Virus genome (UHGV): UHGV-0211472
Origin: a virus
Length of the DNA: 64,000 nt
Direction: 5' to 3' (one strand)
Shown here: positions 28,261 through 46,194 of the stretch, in pieces
How the letters are laid out: every line of letters begins with the position of its first letter
Numbering within the stretch: position 1 is the stretch's first letter
Notes under the pieces: model-generated
Told to the model about the DNA's origin: nothing
Seen by the model: the letters and a program-made list of their open reading frames with translations, nothing else
Databases searched by the model: none
Translations under genes and position numbers: made by a program

Positions 28261-29562
28261 TCACACTTCAAAAGAGAAACCGCGACCCGATTCATCGGCA
28301 AACCGAACTGTACGGGTTTGAGGTTCTAATACTTCAGGGTTGTTGGCAACAAATCTATCAGCGAGGCTATCTCCTAAATCCTCTATCACATCTTCATCAG
28401 TCCACACAGTCCTAACCGGTACATCAAAGTCACCAGCAACAAAACCCTGACCGGAGAATTGACGTGCGCTGACAGTAAAGTCATTTGACCGACCACGAGA
28501 AGAACCAGTCATCCACCGCTCTGTAGAACCGTTCGTAATACCAAGAGCCTCTTCAAAAGATGTTCTAGGATCGGGGCTTTCACTTCGTGACTCTTGTGCT
28601 CGACGCATTTCAGGGACTGCAAACACCCCTTCCATTGTGTTGTGATGATTAGTCTCATCTTCCCGACCAAGTAGATCTCCACTTGTATTGGTTGTTAAGT
28701 TTGTCAACCCTTCAGACCAATACGCACTAATCTGACTAGATCCATGAACACTTGACATTAACTGGATTTCTTCATAAGGGATTCCAAAGAATCGACTCAT
28801 GTCACGATTAACACAATACTGAGCACTTGTTGTATCCTCAACAAGAGCAACCTGACCCCATTCATTGATCAGATGACTGACCGGTTGAGGTGTGGGAAGA
28901 TATCGAGATTGTGCCATATATTGGTATGCAACAGATGGAGCGGAGAATCTTAATACCTGTGAATTAGGCCACTTCTTGTGAACATACTTGATTTCACGAC
29001 CAGAAACAACTACTGGACAGGGGGAGGTCATAGCCAAATATCCATGAGGGGTCATGAATAGATTGTCAAGAGTAATCGCACCACGGCACATCATAGGAAA
29101 GCTGTCCAACACCTCTTCAATAGAAGTAGGATAGTTAAACATGAATTGGATACGAACCCCACTCCACTGGAACTCAATAATATCGGTAAATGTTAACAGA
29201 GATCCTTCAGCGTAGGCTTCATTCGTAGCTTCAGCAAGAAGGGAAGAGTACTCAATATCTTGAGACTCGAGCCACTCTTTCACGTTACTTTCAACCTCTC
29301 GTCCGAGATCTTGCCACTGGTCATGGTGGATAAAGGTGTTTCGAGTTCTTGGGGCCTGTCCTCTGACAATAAAGATATCAATGTCATGAGGTGCTCTGTT
29401 ATTAAGAACAGCATCACGAACAGCCCCACCAGTGATGATGGGACAAATACAGTCTGGAATCAAGTTGTTGTTAATCAGCTGTTCAATGAAGTGACGACCA
29501 ACAGCGATATCAGGTTGTTGAGCAACCTTATCTGCAATTCGGTTAATCGGGATAACAATCAT
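28261..29562 (-). CDS. Nucleotidyltransferase (CCA-adding / poly(A) polymerase head-domain type)
   Basis: IITGGAVRDAVLN-x9-DIDIFI matches the GGxVRD...DxD head motif; start moved to ATG MIVIPINR to avoid 56 nt overlap. Confidence 0.5.
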   Translation of the reverse strand: MIVIPINRIADKVAQQPDIAVGRHFIEQLINNNLIPDCICPIITGGAVRDAVLNNRAPHDIDIFIVRGQAPRTRNTFIHHDQWQDLGREVESNVKEWLESQDIEYSSLLAEATNEAYAEGSLLTFTDIIEFQWSGVRIQFMFNYPTSIEEVLDSFPMMCRGAITLDNLFMTPHGYLAMTSPCPVVVSGREIKYVHKKWPNSQVLRFSAPSVAYQYMAQSRYLPTPQPVSHLINEWGQVALVEDTTSAQYCVNRDMSRFFGIPYEEIQLMSSVHGSSQISAYWSEGLTNLTTNTSGDLLGREDETNHHNTMEGVFAVPEMRRAQESRSESPDPRTSFEEALGITNGSTERWMTGSSRGRSNDFTVSARQFSGQGFVAGDFDVPVRTVWTDEDVIEDLGDSLADRFVANNPEVLEPQTRTVRFADESGRGFSFEV

Positions 29563-29563
29563 T

Positions 29564-30121
29564 TTACATTTTCCAATATAATGAAGGTGGGTCGTAAGGG
29601 TCAAATCCTGTGAGTTCACACAAGTATTTATAAACCTTAACAGTTAAATTAACGTCCTGTTCACAATAAGTAAACATATCCTCAGTGAAAGCATCCCATG
29701 CTTCCTCTTGCTCACCGTAATCACCTTTAAGTTCCCCTAAGAACTCACCCCATTGCTTCAAGCCATGACCTCTTGGGCCATGTCTAGGGTCGCCTTTCGG
29801 GTACTCAGGACTGTCACCAATACGGTCAGGTTTAAGATATCGACTAAGACATAAAGTGTCAAAGACGTTAAAACGATAGTTAATCAGATTGGGATACATC
29901 TTCTTCAGAGCACAAAGGTCGAAGTCAATAATATTGTGACCCACGAGCACATCTGCTTCTGTAAGTTTATGAATCCCATCTTCAATTTGGTGAGGCCGAT
30001 AGCCCCACCTTTCACCAGTTTCAACATCGAAAACATAAATACACCATACTTTGGTTATATCATCGTATAGTGCATTACTCTCAATATCGAATGCAAACAC
30101 TTTCTTCTTTTTCTTTACCAC
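29564..30121 (-). CDS. 3'-5' proofreading exonuclease (T7 gp5 N-terminal domain-like), stand-alone
   Basis: Exo I FDIES, Exo [11 protein letters not shown], Exo III YCEQDV; colinear with T7 DNA polymerase residues ~1-190. Confidence 0.75.
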
Positions 30122-30660
30122 GGTGAAGCTCCATCTGCTTGGCTGACGAGAGAAGCTGCATCCTCTCCGTTAGTTAAAACGAATGGATTATCTTCATCAA
30201 CTTCAAAGTCTTCCCTTTCTACAAGTCTACCGGTTTCACTGATATACTTAGTATAACAGACACCTGTCTGACCGTAGTTACGTTCTTTCAGTAATCGAAT
30301 GACTGAGAGGTTCTTAGCTAAGCCGTCAGCTTGCTTGTCACGCTCAAAGCCAATGATACACTGACACCAACGCATAAGAGAACGAGAGCCAGTGAACTGT
30401 ACTTCACGTACCTGTCCACCTTCTTCATGAGGAGCACCACCTGCCGGAGCATTAAGGTGAGATAGCACGAAAGCGGTAAAGTCTAACTCTTTACACATAC
30501 CAGCAAGCTCGGAAGCGATCTTACTGATTTCAGTGTTAATCTCTGAAGGTGTTAAATGAGATACCAGAGCGGTAATGTTATCAAGGATGATAAATTTACA
30601 CTGGTTTTCAACTACCCAGAAACGAATACACTGTTTAATGTCTTCCCATTCGTTTTGCAA
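30115..30660 (-). CDS. Primase-helicase, 3' exon (helicase motifs H2-H4)
   Basis: [10 protein letters not shown] and QFTGSRS helicase motifs; no Walker A; frame is open upstream to a TGA with no ATG/GTG; true exon start likely at 30675 or 30690. Confidence 0.7.
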
Positions 30661-30910
30661 TAATTCAATGAAGGACGCAACTCCTTCACCCGTAGCATTA
30701 TATCTACTGCCCGTGGTTTCCCACGGGATTGGACTATATCATCACTCCTATTAAGGAGGCTAGGCGCTTCCACTAGCATTAGCTTCTAGTGTACTCCTTT
30801 CGGATAGTCTCTGCACTTTCTAGGATGTATCCTAGCTTAGCTCAGGATTGGCATATCTTTCGACTTAGCTTTCCCTGAATTCACCTAGTTTTACTTCGGC
30901 CATTGTGTTA
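30661..30910 (-). ncRNA. Group I self-splicing intron (subgroup IA-like) in primase-helicase gene
   Basis: Minus-strand P/Q/R/S cores GAATTCAGGGAAAGC, CAATCCTGAGC, GCAGAGACTATCC, GATATAGTCCAA; P9 CCCGTGG-GAAA-CCACGGG; guide GGCCGAAG pairs with exon end ACTTCGGT; 3' boundary uncertain (30676 or 30691). Confidence 0.6.
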
Positions 30911-44948: not shown

Positions 44949-45047
44949 GTCACTACTCCCTACTAATTACAGCCTGTAAGGGCCACACAGACGATGAAGA
45001 TACAGATTAAGGATATTACACCACCCCAACTCATAACACACCTCATT

Positions 45048-45563
45048 CTATTTAGTTAACCAAAAACCTTTCGGCTTTTTAACAACACCAAGAATCCTAC
45101 ATCTCTTATGGACAGCCGAATCACTAACACTCAGTAACCTCCCTACTACGTACACGGGGTAAATGTCTATTAAAGACTGAAGAGATTCTTTTGTTATTTC
45201 AAACCGTCTGCTATCTAATTTGGCACAAAGCTGTGAGCAAAACCTTTGGTTGCTATTCTCTGAAACAAGGTAAATCTCTCCACAAAAAGAACATAATCTT
45301 TCTTCCATAACAGCCCCATGATGATGCCTGCTATGCTCCTCATAAGTCATGATTTCTAAATTAGATGGTTCGTTGTTTAACTTATTCTCATCCTTGTGAT
45401 GAACCACTAGGTCAGAGTTCAGTTCGACACCGTAGAAATTTTGAGCAACATACCTATGAACATACACCTTTCCAGCTTTATTGGCCATAGGGTGTGTTGG
45501 TTGGTACACATACAAATAACCAACACCTTTATCAACAACTGCTTTACTTAGATCTAGCTTCAT
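45048..45563 (-). CDS. HNH homing endonuclease
   Basis: HNH core VHHKDENKLNNEPSNLEIMTYEEHSRHHH plus C-terminal CxxC...C zinc motif. Confidence 0.6.
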   Translation of the reverse strand: MKLDLSKAVVDKGVGYLYVYQPTHPMANKAGKVYVHRYVAQNFYGVELNSDLVVHHKDENKLNNEPSNLEIMTYEEHSRHHHGAVMEERLCSFCGEIYLVSENSNQRFCSQLCAKLDSRRFEITKESLQSLIDIYPVYVVGRLLSVSDSAVHKRCRILGVVKKPKGFWLTK

Positions 45564-45583
45564 AATACCTCAAGAACTCTTAG

Positions 45584-45662
45584 CGAGGGTGACAGGACTC
45601 GAACCTGCATACTCCATTTACTTCTTTAACGACCACTTAGAAGGCGGGGAAGATACACCCTC
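45584..45662 (-). ncRNA. tRNA-like element (non-canonical, 79 nt)
   Basis: Minus strand has 7 bp acceptor-like stem GAGGGTG/CACCCTC and T-arm GCAGG-TTCGAGT-CCTGT, no encoded CCA; no canonical D-arm or 7 nt anticodon loop found by eye. Confidence 0.35.
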
Positions 45663-45683
45663 ACTAAGAGCTCTCGTTAATCC

Positions 45684-46157: not shown

Positions 46158-46194
46158 CAACAAAGGCCACCCGATTGGGCAGCCTTTTTATTTG
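46158..46194. terminator. Terminator hairpin (conserved GGCCACCCGATTGGG element)
   Basis: AAAGGCCACCCGATTGGGCAGCC followed by TTTTTATTT on plus strand and T-rich on minus; copy of 23490..23512. Confidence 0.4.

What the first reader, a model, noticed from the sequence alone, without database searches (positions are those of the whole stretch)
45584..45662. tRNA-like structured element lacking a canonical D-arm and anticodon loop, just upstream of an HNH endonuclease gene
The minus strand has a convincing tRNA 3' half: T-arm GCAGG-TTCGAGT-CCTGT, a 7 bp acceptor-like stem (GAGGGTG/CACCCTC), discriminator G and no encoded CCA. The 47 nt between the acceptor 5' strand and the T-arm fold only as a CTTCT...AGAAG stem with a 13 nt loop. 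The acceptor stem extends outward to ~15 bp with one mismatch (CTCTTAGTGAGGGTG / CACCCTCGCTAAGAG), suggesting a long processing stem. It could be a degenerate tRNA, a tRNA-like processing signal, or a target site for the adjacent HNH endonuclease (45048..45563). A CCA-adding-type nucleotidyltransferase is encoded at 28261..29562.
Basis: seen in the sequence. Interest (0 to 1): 0.5.

Follow-up and report, generated by a model that had tools for sequence, protein, structure and literature searches.

The report
Segment-swapped arginine tRNA gene in phages
The flagged element is not a broken tRNA: it belongs to a widespread, almost never annotated phage family of arginine tRNA genes in which two internal segments are in swapped order, an arrangement I found no description of.

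Summary
The sequence features are real (minus strand 45662..45584). The window is a Kuravirus-like coliphage.

I collected 109 distinct homologues from phage genomes, viral contigs and metagenomes. These include Felix O1, phi92, PBECO4-like jumbo phages, Klebsiella T5-like phages and Streptomyces phages. Only two turned up in 185,579 prokaryote genomes, both on MAG contigs.

All four helices covary. A 3-4 bp helix (CUUC/GAAG here) encloses the anticodon arm. A D-loop-like UAAnUGGAGUAU sits directly before the T arm. So the order is 1-9 | 22-44 | 10-21 | 48-76.

ARAGORN/109 native sequences. After a pure in-silico swap of the two segments it as tRNA-Arg.

Anticodons are UCU (101), ACG (5), CCU (2) and UCG (1), all arginine. 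The ArgRS identity elements are kept. The gene fills the slot of a canonical tRNA-Arg(UCU) in sister phages.

The window copy lacks CCA, sits in a covarying 21-bp leader-trailer/acceptor helix, and is followed by a mobile HNH gene.

Most likely it is a working tRNA-Arg with a rewired core. Expression, charging and 3D fold are untested.

The parts
45663..45676 (-). 5' leader strand (CGAGAGCUCUUAGU) of the leader-trailer helix that extends the acceptor stem
   Evidence: Pairs with 45584..45571: 14 bp including 3 G.U. The same helix has compensatory changes in Bas93, 1-6af, TH42, L031 and POP12. 45676 is also the edge of the cassette that differs from phage O18-011.
45656..45662 (-). Acceptor stem, 5' strand GAGGGUG (tRNA positions 1-7)
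   Evidence: 7 bp with 45591..45585. Family-wide, 99% of cells are paired and all 7 pairs show changes on both sides.
45653..45655 (-). U8, A9 and one further U. U8 and A9 are identical in all 42 aligned sequences.
   Evidence: Invariant columns 8-9 in alignment A3. Column 10 is T in 102 and C in 7 of the 109 members.
45649..45652 (-). CUUC: the strand that plays the role of the D-stem 3' strand plus position 26 (canonical 23-26). Here it lies before the anticodon arm.
   Evidence: Pairs with GAAG at 45624..45621. Column pairs 12-41 (UA 32 / GC 8 / AU 2) and 13-40 (CG 37 / UA 4 / GC 1) are never unpaired. 308 of 309 cells are paired over 103 sequences, with 19 different strand combinations. 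Pair 14-39 covaries A.C / C.A / A-U / C-G.
45632..45648 (-). Anticodon arm: stem 45648..45644 with 45636..45632 (here C.U, C-G, C-G, G.U, C-G), loop CUUCUAA at 45643..45637, anticodon UCU at 45641..45639 (Arg, AGA/AGG)
   Evidence: All 5 stem pairs covary, 96% of cells paired. RNAalifold predicts the arm independently. The loop is conserved. Family anticodons are UCU 101, ACG 5, CCU 2, UCG 1.
45625..45631 (-). 7-nt connector CGUUAAA between the anticodon stem and the D-stem 5' strand. No counterpart exists in canonical tRNA.
   Evidence: Consensus C-R-U-U-A-A-N, nearly invariant. Its role is unknown; a tertiary contact is inferred.
45621..45624 (-). GAAG: plays the role of the D-stem 5' strand (canonical about 44/10-12). 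Here it lies after the anticodon arm.
   Evidence: Same covariation as 45649..45652. The alternative partner, the invariant GGAG, fails in 10 of 42 sequences.
45609..45620 (-). D-loop-like segment UAAAUGGAGUAU (A14, A15, G18, G19, A20, A21, then U48), running straight into the T stem
   Evidence: TAAnTGGAGTAT in all 109 members; n is absent in 10. The mapping to D-loop positions is inferred from the swap test.
45592..45608 (-). T arm GCAGG-UUCGAGU-CCUGU
   Evidence: 99.5% of cells paired with covariation, G53-C61 invariant. The Rfam tRNA alignment covers it with high posterior probability.
45584..45591 (-). Acceptor 3' strand CACCCUC plus discriminator G (45584). No CCA is encoded (CUA follows).
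   Evidence: Family discriminators (103 sequences): G 59, A 37, U 6, C 1. 66 of 109 members encode CCA.
45571..45584 (-). 3' trailer strand (GCUAAGAGUUCUUG) of the leader-trailer helix. It ends at the Shine-Dalgarno GAGG (45571..45568) of the HNH gene.
   Evidence: 16 of 43 CCA-less members have a 12-16 bp extension. None of the 66 CCA-encoding members exceeds 4 bp.
45048..45563 (-). Free-standing HNH endonuclease gene (171 aa) inserted directly 3' of the tRNA gene
   Evidence: PF13392 47 bits; phrog_15471. Absent at this exact place in Bas94. Homologues at 31-60% identity sit directly 3' of the same tRNA in L031, 7t3, L039, L057 and L060.
45045..45676 (-). The 632-bp cassette (helix + tRNA + HNH). 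It replaces a 1.4-kb cassette holding a canonical tRNA-Arg(UCU) and a different HNH in the sister phage O18-011.
   Evidence: blastn of the window against L001: flanks 94-96% identical, interior unrelated.

Best explanation
Window 45662..45584 (minus strand) is a gene for an arginine tRNA (anticodon UCU, codons AGA/AGG) of a phage-specific lineage whose core is wired in a different order from every tRNA described so far.

Canonical order is acceptor-8/9 | D-stem 5' strand + D loop (10-21) | D-stem 3' strand + 26 + anticodon arm (22-44) | 48 + T arm + acceptor. Here the two middle segments are swapped. After U8-A9 comes the D-stem 3' strand, then the anticodon arm and a conserved 7-nt connector. 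Then comes the D-stem 5' strand and the D-loop sequence, which runs directly into the T arm.

Shown:
- The same four helices form: acceptor, 3-4 bp D-stem-like helix, anticodon stem, T stem.
- All universally conserved tertiary nucleotides (U8, A14, R15, G18, G19, A21, Y48, T54-Psi55-C56) and the ArgRS identity elements (A20, C35, U/G36, A/G73) sit where the swap model puts them.
- In this window the gene encodes no CCA and lies inside a 21-bp leader-trailer/acceptor helix.

Inferred:
- The RNA folds into the usual L shape, is charged by host ArgRS and decodes AGA/AGG. These make up 25% of this phage's Arg codons.
- The precursor is cut out of a polycistronic transcript, possibly by RNase III acting on the long helix. 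It is then finished by RNase P and 3' trimming, and receives CCA from the host enzyme or possibly the phage nucleotidyltransferase.
- The HNH gene immediately downstream is a separate mobile homing-endonuclease gene. It travels next to this tRNA gene and probably helped move the cassette into this phage in place of a canonical tRNA-Arg(UCU).
For: (1) Family and structure.
- 109 distinct homologues.
- 94.7% of cells paired, 17 of 21 pairs with changes on both sides, 0/500 shuffles as good, and slid controls collapse to 34-44% paired.
- The D-stem-like helix is never unpaired at its two variable pairs and shows 19 strand combinations.
- The mutual-information ranking is headed by helix pairs. 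The best non-helix signals involve columns 39, 41, 12 and 14, and include the pair 14-39.

(2) Swap test. ARAGORN/109 native sequences. After exchanging columns 10-39 with 40-53, with no base added or removed, it as tRNA-Arg. Random swaps give 5/109.

(3) Arginine identity.
- Anticodons are UCU 101, ACG 5, CCU 2, UCG 1, all arginine.
- GGA (A20) and C35 are invariant. 93% of discriminators are A or G. These match the E. coli ArgRS identity set (PMC9976931).

(4) Genomic role.
- The gene lies inside phage tRNA arrays.
- Among about 800 canonical tRNAs in 64 member loci, ARAGORN calls only two tRNA-Arg(tct): one canonical gene in L051 and the diverged 98-nt paralogue in L038. tRNA-Arg(acg) appears 17 times.
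- It occupies exactly the slot of a canonical tRNA-Arg(UCU) in sister phages: window versus O18-011, and Felix O1 versus Mooglevirus Sf19.

(5) Selection within the window's own lineage.
- Compensatory acceptor change against Bas94.
- Compensatory changes in the leader-trailer helix.

(6) Demand. AGA plus AGG total 13.6 per 1000 codons in 54 window ORFs.

(7) 66 of 109 members encode CCA.

(8) HNH mobility.
Against: - No expression, end-mapping, aminoacylation or structural data exist for any member. Everything beyond secondary structure is inference.
- The window copy lacks CCA. Its anticodon stem has only 4 pairs (one G.U) plus a C.U mismatch. It is tied with Bas94 as the lowest-scoring full-length member (97.5 bits).
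- The D-stem-like helix is only 3-4 bp and is not predicted by energy-based folding.
- Whether 9 to 22, 21 to 48 and 43 to 10 can be joined without distorting the L shape was argued from general knowledge of tRNA structure, not modelled.
- A long leader-trailer helix is expected to hinder RNase P, so the processing route is uncertain.
- Failing to find prior literature does not prove none exists.
Confidence: 0.72

Rival explanations
1. It is a tRNA mimic, not a translation substrate. In this reading the RNA acts as a decoy or inhibitor for a host tRNA-targeting defence nuclease or toxin that attacks tRNA-Arg. Alternatively it is a replacement tRNA whose rewired core exists specifically to escape such a nuclease.
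For: - Phage tRNAs are known to counter tRNA-cleaving defences: PARIS, retron Eco7, P2 OLD (abstracts).
- The unusual, strongly conserved topology needs a selective reason.
- The family is phage-specific, with only two true hits in 185,579 genomes, both on MAG contigs.
- The anticodon loop is identical to the host type (CUUCUAA).
Against: - A pure decoy would not need an encoded CCA (66/109), A20 or an A/G73 discriminator.
- A decoy would not be expected to diversify only among arginine anticodons (UCU, CCU, ACG, UCG).
- A decoy would not be expected to be mutually exclusive with canonical tRNA-Arg(UCU) in tRNA arrays.
- No defence system known to target tRNA-Arg(UCU) turned up in the papers read.
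- The 'escape variant that still translates' version is compatible with the best explanation rather than a rival to it.
Confidence: 0.15
2. It is mainly a processing or regulatory RNA structure for the polycistronic transcript, or a DNA target for the neighbouring HNH. The long hairpin with a tRNA-like top would serve as an RNase III/RNase P entry site separating upstream and downstream mRNAs, and controlling the HNH ribosome-binding site.
For: - 21-bp helix with compensatory changes in several lineages.
- The helix ends at the HNH Shine-Dalgarno sequence.
- Homologous HNH genes sit directly 3' of the element in six loci counting the window.
Against: - The long helix occurs in only 16 of 109 members. 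The other 93 have none, and 66 encode CCA like ordinary tRNA genes.
- Conservation of the anticodon loop and of the arginine identity elements is not explained.
- Bas94, Felix O1, phi92 and most others have no adjacent homologous HNH.
Confidence: 0.08
3. It is a decaying tRNA pseudogene, or a chance tRNA-like sequence left by recombination at a tRNA gene. This includes a phage attachment-site remnant.
For: - No tRNA finder calls it and it falls below the Rfam threshold.
- No CCA is encoded.
- tRNAscan-SE users have labelled some tRNA calls in Felix-like phages 'pseudo-tRNA' (PMC4837284). Whether those calls include this element was not checked.
Against: - 109 distinct sequences from very different phages keep every helix through compensatory change.
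- The loops are nearly invariant.
- A compensatory change separates the window from its nearest relative.
- Nothing suggesting lysogeny or an integrase was seen in the parts of the window examined. This was not searched for systematically. Both acceptor strands are present.
Confidence: 0.02

Closest known systems
Canonical bacterial and phage tRNA-Arg(UCU), e.g. E. coli argU, or the tRNA-Arg of Kuravirus O18-011 and Mooglevirus Sf19
   Same: - 7-bp acceptor, 5-bp T stem with a TTCGA-type loop, and anticodon loop CUUCUAA.
- D-loop motif with GG followed by A20; A/G73.
- Same genomic slot in sister phages and same position in tRNA arrays.
   Different: - The order of the two inner segments is exchanged, so there is no D hairpin between positions 9 and 26.
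- The D loop abuts the T stem, and a conserved 7-nt connector is added.
- The family model gives canonical tRNAs 38 bits or less, against 97 bits or more for members.
D-arm-lacking mitochondrial tRNAs (e.g. metazoan/nematode mt-tRNA-Ser(UCU/GCU)), reviewed in PMC7609411
   Same: No D hairpin at the usual place. Standard tRNA finders miss or mislabel them.
   Different: - In those tRNAs the D arm is lost and replaced by a short flexible connector, and they need adapted partner proteins.
- Here both D-stem strands and a full D-loop sequence with G18 G19 are kept and merely relocated.
- The host is a bacterium with standard translation factors.
Circularly permuted and split tRNA genes (Cyanidioschyzon merolae; Archaea, PMC3218864)
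   Same: The gene order of tRNA segments differs from the canonical order.
   Different: - In those genes the 3' half precedes the 5' half, and processing through a circular or trans-spliced intermediate restores a canonical tRNA.
- Here the acceptor ends are terminal and the permutation is internal. No known bacterial machinery would restore the normal order, so the mature RNA itself is presumed permuted.
Free-standing homing endonucleases in phage tRNA gene clusters: T4 SegB, and the T5 HNH endonucleases F-TflI/II/IV. SegB is supported by the abstract of PMC13096335. The T5 case is from my own knowledge.
   Same: A small endonuclease gene sits next to tRNA genes, shows presence/absence polymorphism between close relatives, and is associated with replacement of the adjacent tRNA region.
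   Different: The HNH_3 family here (phrog_15471) is tied to one particular tRNA gene across unrelated phages. Its cleavage site is unknown.
CCA-less phage T4 tRNA precursors that need host RNase BN/Z and the CCA-adding enzyme (own knowledge)
   Same: A phage tRNA gene without encoded CCA in a host whose own tRNA genes all encode it.
   Different: Here the CCA-less state goes with a 12-16-bp leader-trailer helix. I know of no equivalent for T4.

Membership tests
tRNA (Rfam RF00005 / canonical cloverleaf) | 7-bp acceptor stem closing the molecule, with a discriminator base | tested here: met
   GAGGGUG/CACCCUC plus G73. 99% of cells paired, and all 7 pairs covary in the family.
tRNA (Rfam RF00005 / canonical cloverleaf) | T arm: 5-bp stem, 7-nt loop T54-Psi55-C56-R57-A58, G53-C61 | tested here: met
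   GCAGG-UUCGAGU-CCUGU. Invariant TTC..A and G-C.
tRNA (Rfam RF00005 / canonical cloverleaf) | Anticodon arm: 5-bp stem, 7-nt loop with U33 and a purine at 37 | tested here: met
   Loop C-U-UCU-A-A. The stem is 4 bp plus a C.U mismatch in the window and 5 bp in most members; all 5 pairs covary.
tRNA (Rfam RF00005 / canonical cloverleaf) | D arm as a hairpin between positions 9 and 26 | tested here: not met
   The two D-stem strands enclose the anticodon arm, and the D loop follows them. The Rfam alignment skips this region.
tRNA (Rfam RF00005 / canonical cloverleaf) | Score at or above the family threshold, or a call by a tRNA finder | tested here: not met
   Window 28.1 bits against a gathering score of 29. 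Other members score 31.7-38.6 bits, neighbouring tRNAs mostly 48-67. ARAGORN/109. tRNAscan-SE was not available.
tRNA (functional definition) | Aminoacylated and used on the ribosome | not testable with these tools
   Indirect evidence only: arginine-only anticodons, A20/C35/73 kept, and slot replacement of canonical tRNA-Arg.
Arginine tRNA (E. coli-type identity set) | A20 in the D loop, C35, U/G36, A/G73 (PMC9976931) | tested here: met
   GGA invariant in the D-loop-like segment. C35 is invariant and position 36 is U or G. Discriminator G in the window, and G/A in 96 of 103 members. One search gives the identity set. The position numbering relies on the swap model.
D-arm-lacking (mitochondrial-type) tRNA | D arm lost and replaced by a short unpaired connector | tested here: not met
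   A covarying D-stem-like helix and a complete D-loop motif are present.
Circularly permuted tRNA gene (algal/archaeal type) | 3' half encoded upstream of the 5' half, with the acceptor termini internal to the gene | tested here: not met
   The acceptor strands are at the two ends of the gene. Only the two inner segments are exchanged.
Free-standing HNH homing endonuclease (for 45563..45048) | HNH catalytic domain | tested here: met
   PF13392, 47.2 bits against a cut-off of 24.8.
Free-standing HNH homing endonuclease (for 45563..45048) | Presence/absence polymorphism at one site among close relatives, and recurrence next to the same target gene | tested here: met
   Absent in Bas94 at the same junction. 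Homologues lie directly 3' of the element in 5 other loci.
Free-standing HNH homing endonuclease (for 45563..45048) | Site-specific cleavage of the endonuclease-free allele | not testable with these tools
   Needs a cleavage assay on the Bas94-type locus.
RNase III processing stem (for the leader-trailer helix) | About two turns of double-stranded RNA, conserved by compensatory change | tested here: met
   14 + 7 = 21 bp in the window. The extension is 12-16 bp in 16 members, with covariation.
RNase III processing stem (for the leader-trailer helix) | Cleavage by RNase III in vivo | not testable with these tools
   Needs end mapping in rnc+ and rnc- hosts.

The most novel reading that the evidence does not exclude
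This is the first natural tRNA whose mature form has an internally permuted core (1-9 | 22-44 | 10-21 | 48-76) yet keeps the helices and tertiary nucleotides of the L shape. It is charged by the host ArgRS and works on the host ribosome. It is carried unnoticed by hundreds of sequenced phages, including classics such as Felix O1 and phi92. The topology would be maintained because it changes how the RNA is seen by host factors, for example by letting it escape tRNA-targeting immunity or toxins. It would spread between unrelated phages with the help of adjacent homing endonucleases.
Probability: 0.5. Interest if true: 0.92.

Novelty: new variant of a known kind. Interest (0 to 1): 0.85.

Why it matters
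If the RNA is a working tRNA, the cloverleaf connectivity is not required for tRNA function in an ordinary bacterial translation system. Only the helices and tertiary contacts would be needed. That bears on four areas:

- How tRNA folds, and how RNase P, ArgRS, EF-Tu, modification enzymes and the ribosome recognise it.
- tRNA engineering, for example orthogonal scaffolds.
- How new RNA topologies arise, for example by duplication followed by deletion.
- Why phages carry tRNAs, a question now tied to anti-defence.

Practically, a gene present in at least 240 sequenced phage genomes is missed or labelled 'tRNA-OTHER', 'Undet', 'TERM' or even 'tRNA-Val'. Phage tRNA inventories and codon-usage studies therefore under-count tRNA-Arg(UCU). 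The covariance model built here could fix that.

Several carriers are easy to work with (Felix O1, phi92, and the BASEL phages Bas93 and Bas94), so the question is directly testable.

Tried and rejected
- **ARAGORN** on the window and on 25 and then 64 member loci never calls the element.
- **Rfam at gathering threshold** finds only a group I intron elsewhere in the window.
- **Single-sequence MFE folding** gives inconsistent interiors and weak z-scores for the core alone. It is not informative.
- **Alternative partner for CUUC** (the invariant GGAG in the D-loop-like segment): 10 of 42 sequences are unpaired at 12-50 and there is no covariation. Rejected.
- **Alternative cloverleaf** implied by the GenBank label tRNA-Val(aac) in Streptomyces phage Yaboi, with the first hairpin as D arm and CG-TTAAC..-CG as anticodon arm. 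The 2-bp stem is not kept in the window, Bas94 or L012. Rejected.
- **Attachment-site remnant or pseudogene.** Rejected on covariation and on the presence of both acceptor strands.
- **Intrinsic terminator.** No U tract follows the helix, and the scan finds none at the element.
- **Other isotypes with the same topology.** The family model finds nothing between 38 and 53 bits in about 513 kb (49 sources) holding several hundred tRNAs, apart from one diverged Arg paralogue in L038.
- **Bacterial origin.** Only 2 true hits in 185,579 genomes, both on MAG contigs.
- **A special link to the phage nucleotidyltransferase** is not supported. I did not check that gene's distribution among relatives, and O18-011 encodes CCA in its canonical tRNA-Arg.
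- **Literature.** Eight full-text searches and several papers read gave no description of such a tRNA.
Full report
**What is in the window.** On the minus strand, 45662..45584 reads GAGGGUG-UAU-CUUC-CCCGC-CUUCUAA-GUGGU-CGUUAAA-GAAG-UAAAUGGAGUAU-GCAGG-UUCGAGU-CCUGU-CACCCUC-G, followed by CUAAGAG.

- ARAGORN finds no tRNA in the whole window.
- Rfam at curated thresholds finds only a group I intron elsewhere.
- A sensitive local search gives the tRNA model 28.1 bits (gathering score 29, E 7.5e-4). It aligns only the acceptor and T arm.
- The window is a Kuravirus-like E. coli phage, about 92% identical to O18-011 and relatives.

**The element has many homologues.**
- blastn against 50,697 phage records finds it in Kuravirus relatives (Bas93, Bas94, 1-6af, FH3, TH42), phi92-like phages, PBECO4-like jumbo phages and Salmonella jumbo phage 7t3.
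- It also finds it in Felixounavirus, Klebsiella T5-like and Mydo-like phages, Serratia and Pectobacterium phages, and Streptomyces phages. In all, 266 records matched and 240 covered at least 80% of a 101-nt query.
- It is almost always unannotated. Otherwise it is labelled tRNA-OTHER, tRNA-Undet, tRNA-TERM or, in Streptomyces phage Yaboi, tRNA-Val(aac).
- Pattern scans of IMG/VR and of metagenomes added more, giving 109 distinct sequences that pass simple pairing filters.
- One genome for each of 185,579 prokaryotic species yielded four pattern matches. Only two are true members, both on MAG contigs. The family is therefore essentially phage-borne.

**Secondary structure.** In a 42-sequence alignment (A3) the structure is acceptor (1-7/72-78), helix h (11-14/39-42), anticodon stem (15-19/27-31) and T stem (55-59/67-71).

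- 94.7% of cells are paired, and 17 of 21 pairs have changes on both sides.
- No shuffle out of 500 does as well. Sliding the partners by 1-3 columns drops pairing to 34-44%.
- RNAalifold independently predicts the acceptor, anticodon and T helices.
- Helix h is the critical one. Pair 12-41 is U-A 32, G-C 8, A-U 2, and pair 13-40 is C-G 37, U-A 4, G-C 1. Neither has any unpaired case.
- Over 103 sequences, 308 of 309 cells pair, with 19 different strand combinations: CTC/GAG, CTTC/GAAG (window), CGC/GCG, CAC/GTG, CATC/GATG, CGGT/ACCG and others.
- Pair 14-39 covaries as A.C, C.A, A-U, C-G.
- The alternative of pairing CUUC with the invariant GGAG fails in 10 of 42 sequences.

**What the structure means.** The 7-nt loop CUUCUAA is a standard anticodon loop with anticodon UCU. 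The segment after helix h, UAAnUGGAGUAU, reads like a D loop (A14, R15, two pyrimidines, G18 G19, A20, A21) followed by U48, and it runs straight into the T stem.

Helix h therefore corresponds to the D stem, but its 3' strand comes first and its 5' strand comes after the anticodon arm. The order is 1-9 | 22-44 | 10-21 | 48-76.

I tested this directly:
- ARAGORN calls none of the native sequences (0/42, then 0/109).
- After exchanging columns 10-39 and 40-53, a pure permutation, it calls all of them as tRNA-Arg: 101 tct, 5 acg, 2 cct, 1 tcg.
- Random internal swaps give 5/109, and shifting the boundaries by 3 nt abolishes most or all calls.

The element is therefore a segment-swapped arginine tRNA. 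That the RNA still forms an L shape is inference. The argument is that positions 9, 21, 22 and 44-48 all meet in the core of canonical tRNA, so the three rewired joints are short. This rests on general knowledge of tRNA structure and was not modelled.

**Is it a working tRNA-Arg?** The evidence is indirect, but the lines agree.

- *Anticodons.* All four types seen are arginine anticodons.
- *Identity set.* The E. coli-type set is A20, C35, U/G36 and A/G73 (PMC9976931). All are kept: GGA and C35 are invariant, and the discriminator is G or A in 96 of 103.
- *CCA.* 66 of 109 members encode it.
- *Context.* The gene lies within phage tRNA arrays. Among about 800 canonical tRNAs around 64 members, ARAGORN calls only two tRNA-Arg(tct): one canonical gene (L051) and the diverged paralogue in L038. 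tRNA-Arg(acg) appears 17 times, and Lys, Thr and Asn about 30 times each.
- *Slot replacement, Kuravirus.* Window 45045..45676 replaces a 1.4-kb cassette of O18-011 that contains a canonical tRNA-Arg(tct). The flanks are 94-96% identical.
- *Slot replacement, Ounavirinae.* Felix O1 carries the swapped gene after tRNA-Ile (AF320576.1 25951..26033, 104 bits, unannotated). Mooglevirus Sf19 has a canonical tRNA-Arg(TCT) in the same place.
- *Demand.* AGA and AGG make up 25% of arginine codons in 54 window ORFs, 13.6 per 1000 codons. From my own knowledge this is several-fold above E. coli usage.

A pure decoy or a pure processing signal would not need this combination. A version in which the rewired core helps a still-functional tRNA escape tRNA-targeting defences remains open and attractive (abstracts).

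**Features particular to the window copy.**
- It lacks CCA: G73 is followed by CUA.
- The leader 45676..45663 pairs with 45584..45571 (14 bp). Stacked on the acceptor stem this gives 21 bp. The 103-nt fold has z = -6.0.
- Bas93 has a perfect 13-bp version. 1-6af, TH42, L031 and Pectobacterium phage POP12 have versions with compensatory differences.
- Family-wide, 16 of 43 CCA-less members have a 12-16-bp extension, and none of the 66 CCA-encoding members exceeds 4 bp.
- I infer that this subclass is released from a polycistronic transcript through the long helix, with RNase III a candidate, and then trimmed and given CCA.
- The phage nucleotidyltransferase at 28261..29562 (minus strand) has the GGAVRD..DID head motif but is below the Pfam threshold. 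I did not check its distribution among relatives, and nothing ties it specifically to this element.
- The window's anticodon stem has a C.U mismatch and a G.U pair, while helix h has a fourth C-G pair. Bas94, Bas93 and 1-6af share this, so it is a lineage trait rather than decay.
- A compensatory acceptor change (G-C to A-U) separates the window from Bas94.

**The HNH gene.**
- 45563..45048 encodes an HNH_3 protein.
- It is absent from Bas94 at exactly this junction.
- Homologues at 31-60% identity lie directly 3' of the swapped tRNA, in the same orientation, in L031, 7t3, L039, L057 and L060.
- Bas93 and 1-6af instead carry a different HNH (phrog_14913) upstream. It is the same family that sits upstream of the canonical tRNA-Arg in O18-011.
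- This tRNA slot is thus a hot spot for free-standing endonuclease genes. That plausibly explains how the two tRNA-Arg versions replace each other. Cleavage specificity is untested.

**Comparison with what is known.**
- The element works like a tRNA-Arg(UCU) and shares most defining features of tRNA. It fails two tests: a D hairpin between positions 9 and 26, and detection thresholds.
- It is not a D-armless mitochondrial-type tRNA, because the D-stem strands and D loop are present.
- It is not a circularly permuted tRNA gene of the algal or archaeal kind, because the termini are normal and nothing is known that would restore the canonical order.
- Eight full-text searches, and reading of reviews on non-canonical tRNAs, found no description of it. 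One paper on a Felix-like phage lists some tRNAscan calls as possible 'pseudo-tRNA', which may or may not include it.
- I therefore rate it a new structural variant of a known kind. The caveat is that the literature held here is incomplete.

**Limits.** There are no expression, charging or structural data. The 3D argument is qualitative. tRNAscan-SE and RNA 3D modelling were not available. Family E-values come from a briefly calibrated model that was built from family members.

Noticed in passing
window 30710..30920 (-), with flanking ORFs 32158..30908 and 30498..30115 (-): A group I intron (Rfam RF00028, 86 bits) splits a DNA primase/helicase gene. The upstream ORF matches phrog_239 positions 37-449 and the downstream ORF positions 503-611.
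   Followed up: partly
window 28261..29562 (-): A 433-aa protein, phrog_12715 'nucleotidyltransferase', with a class II head motif GGAVRD...DIDIF. Pfam PolyA_pol scores only 19 bits (cut-off 23), and the C-terminal two thirds match nothing. Whether it adds CCA is unknown.
   Followed up: partly
L038 13348..13430 (IMG/VR contig 3300049893_000411): A second, diverged paralogue with a UCU loop lies about 270 nt downstream of a CCU member in the same tRNA array. It scores 53 bits with the family model, and its D-stem-like helix seems reduced to 2 bp. ARAGORN reports a 98-nt 'tRNA-Arg(tct)' there.
   Followed up: partly
L108, L137, L149, L160 (metagenome contigs): A divergent sub-lineage has the same D-loop-before-T-arm layout. 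Its connector is only 2-3 nt, and its anticodon loop is CCCCUAA (apparent anticodon CCU, with C rather than U at position 33). In L137 and L160 the strands CGGT/ACTG and CGG/CCG could form the helix.
   Followed up: no
L052 395..473 (Streptomyces phage Yaboi NC_048730.1 86686..86764): The gene annotated tRNA-Val(aac) is a member of this family with a UCU anticodon loop. The 'aac' comes from the conserved connector GUUAAC.
   Followed up: yes
L194 1601..1683 (Felix O1 AF320576.1 25951..26033): The type phage Felix O1 carries the swapped tRNA-Arg unannotated. A hypothetical ORF ('ORF100') is drawn across its 3' part.
   Followed up: yes
L071 452..901, L072 461..901, L001 3821..4237: A second HNH family (phrog_14913) sits immediately upstream of the tRNA-Arg slot in Kuraviruses, whether the tRNA there is the swapped form (Bas93, 1-6af) or the canonical one (O18-011).
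   Followed up: partly
window 45048..45563 (-): The HNH gene itself has 8 AGA/AGG codons in 171, about 4.7%. That is the highest density among the larger ORFs of the window, and the gene lies next to the tRNA that reads those codons.
   Followed up: no
window 46187..46162 (-): A terminator-like hairpin (11 bp, then GTTGTTTT) lies about 500 nt upstream of the element on the transcribed strand. The scan found no sigma-70-like promoter between it and the element on that strand.
   Followed up: no
L086 (metagenome contig ERZ1034739 NODE-23, 68,928 bp): This contig has a copy whose 16-nt 5' flank is identical to the window's and whose 3' flank differs at one base. It is probably a very close relative of the window's phage.
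   Followed up: no
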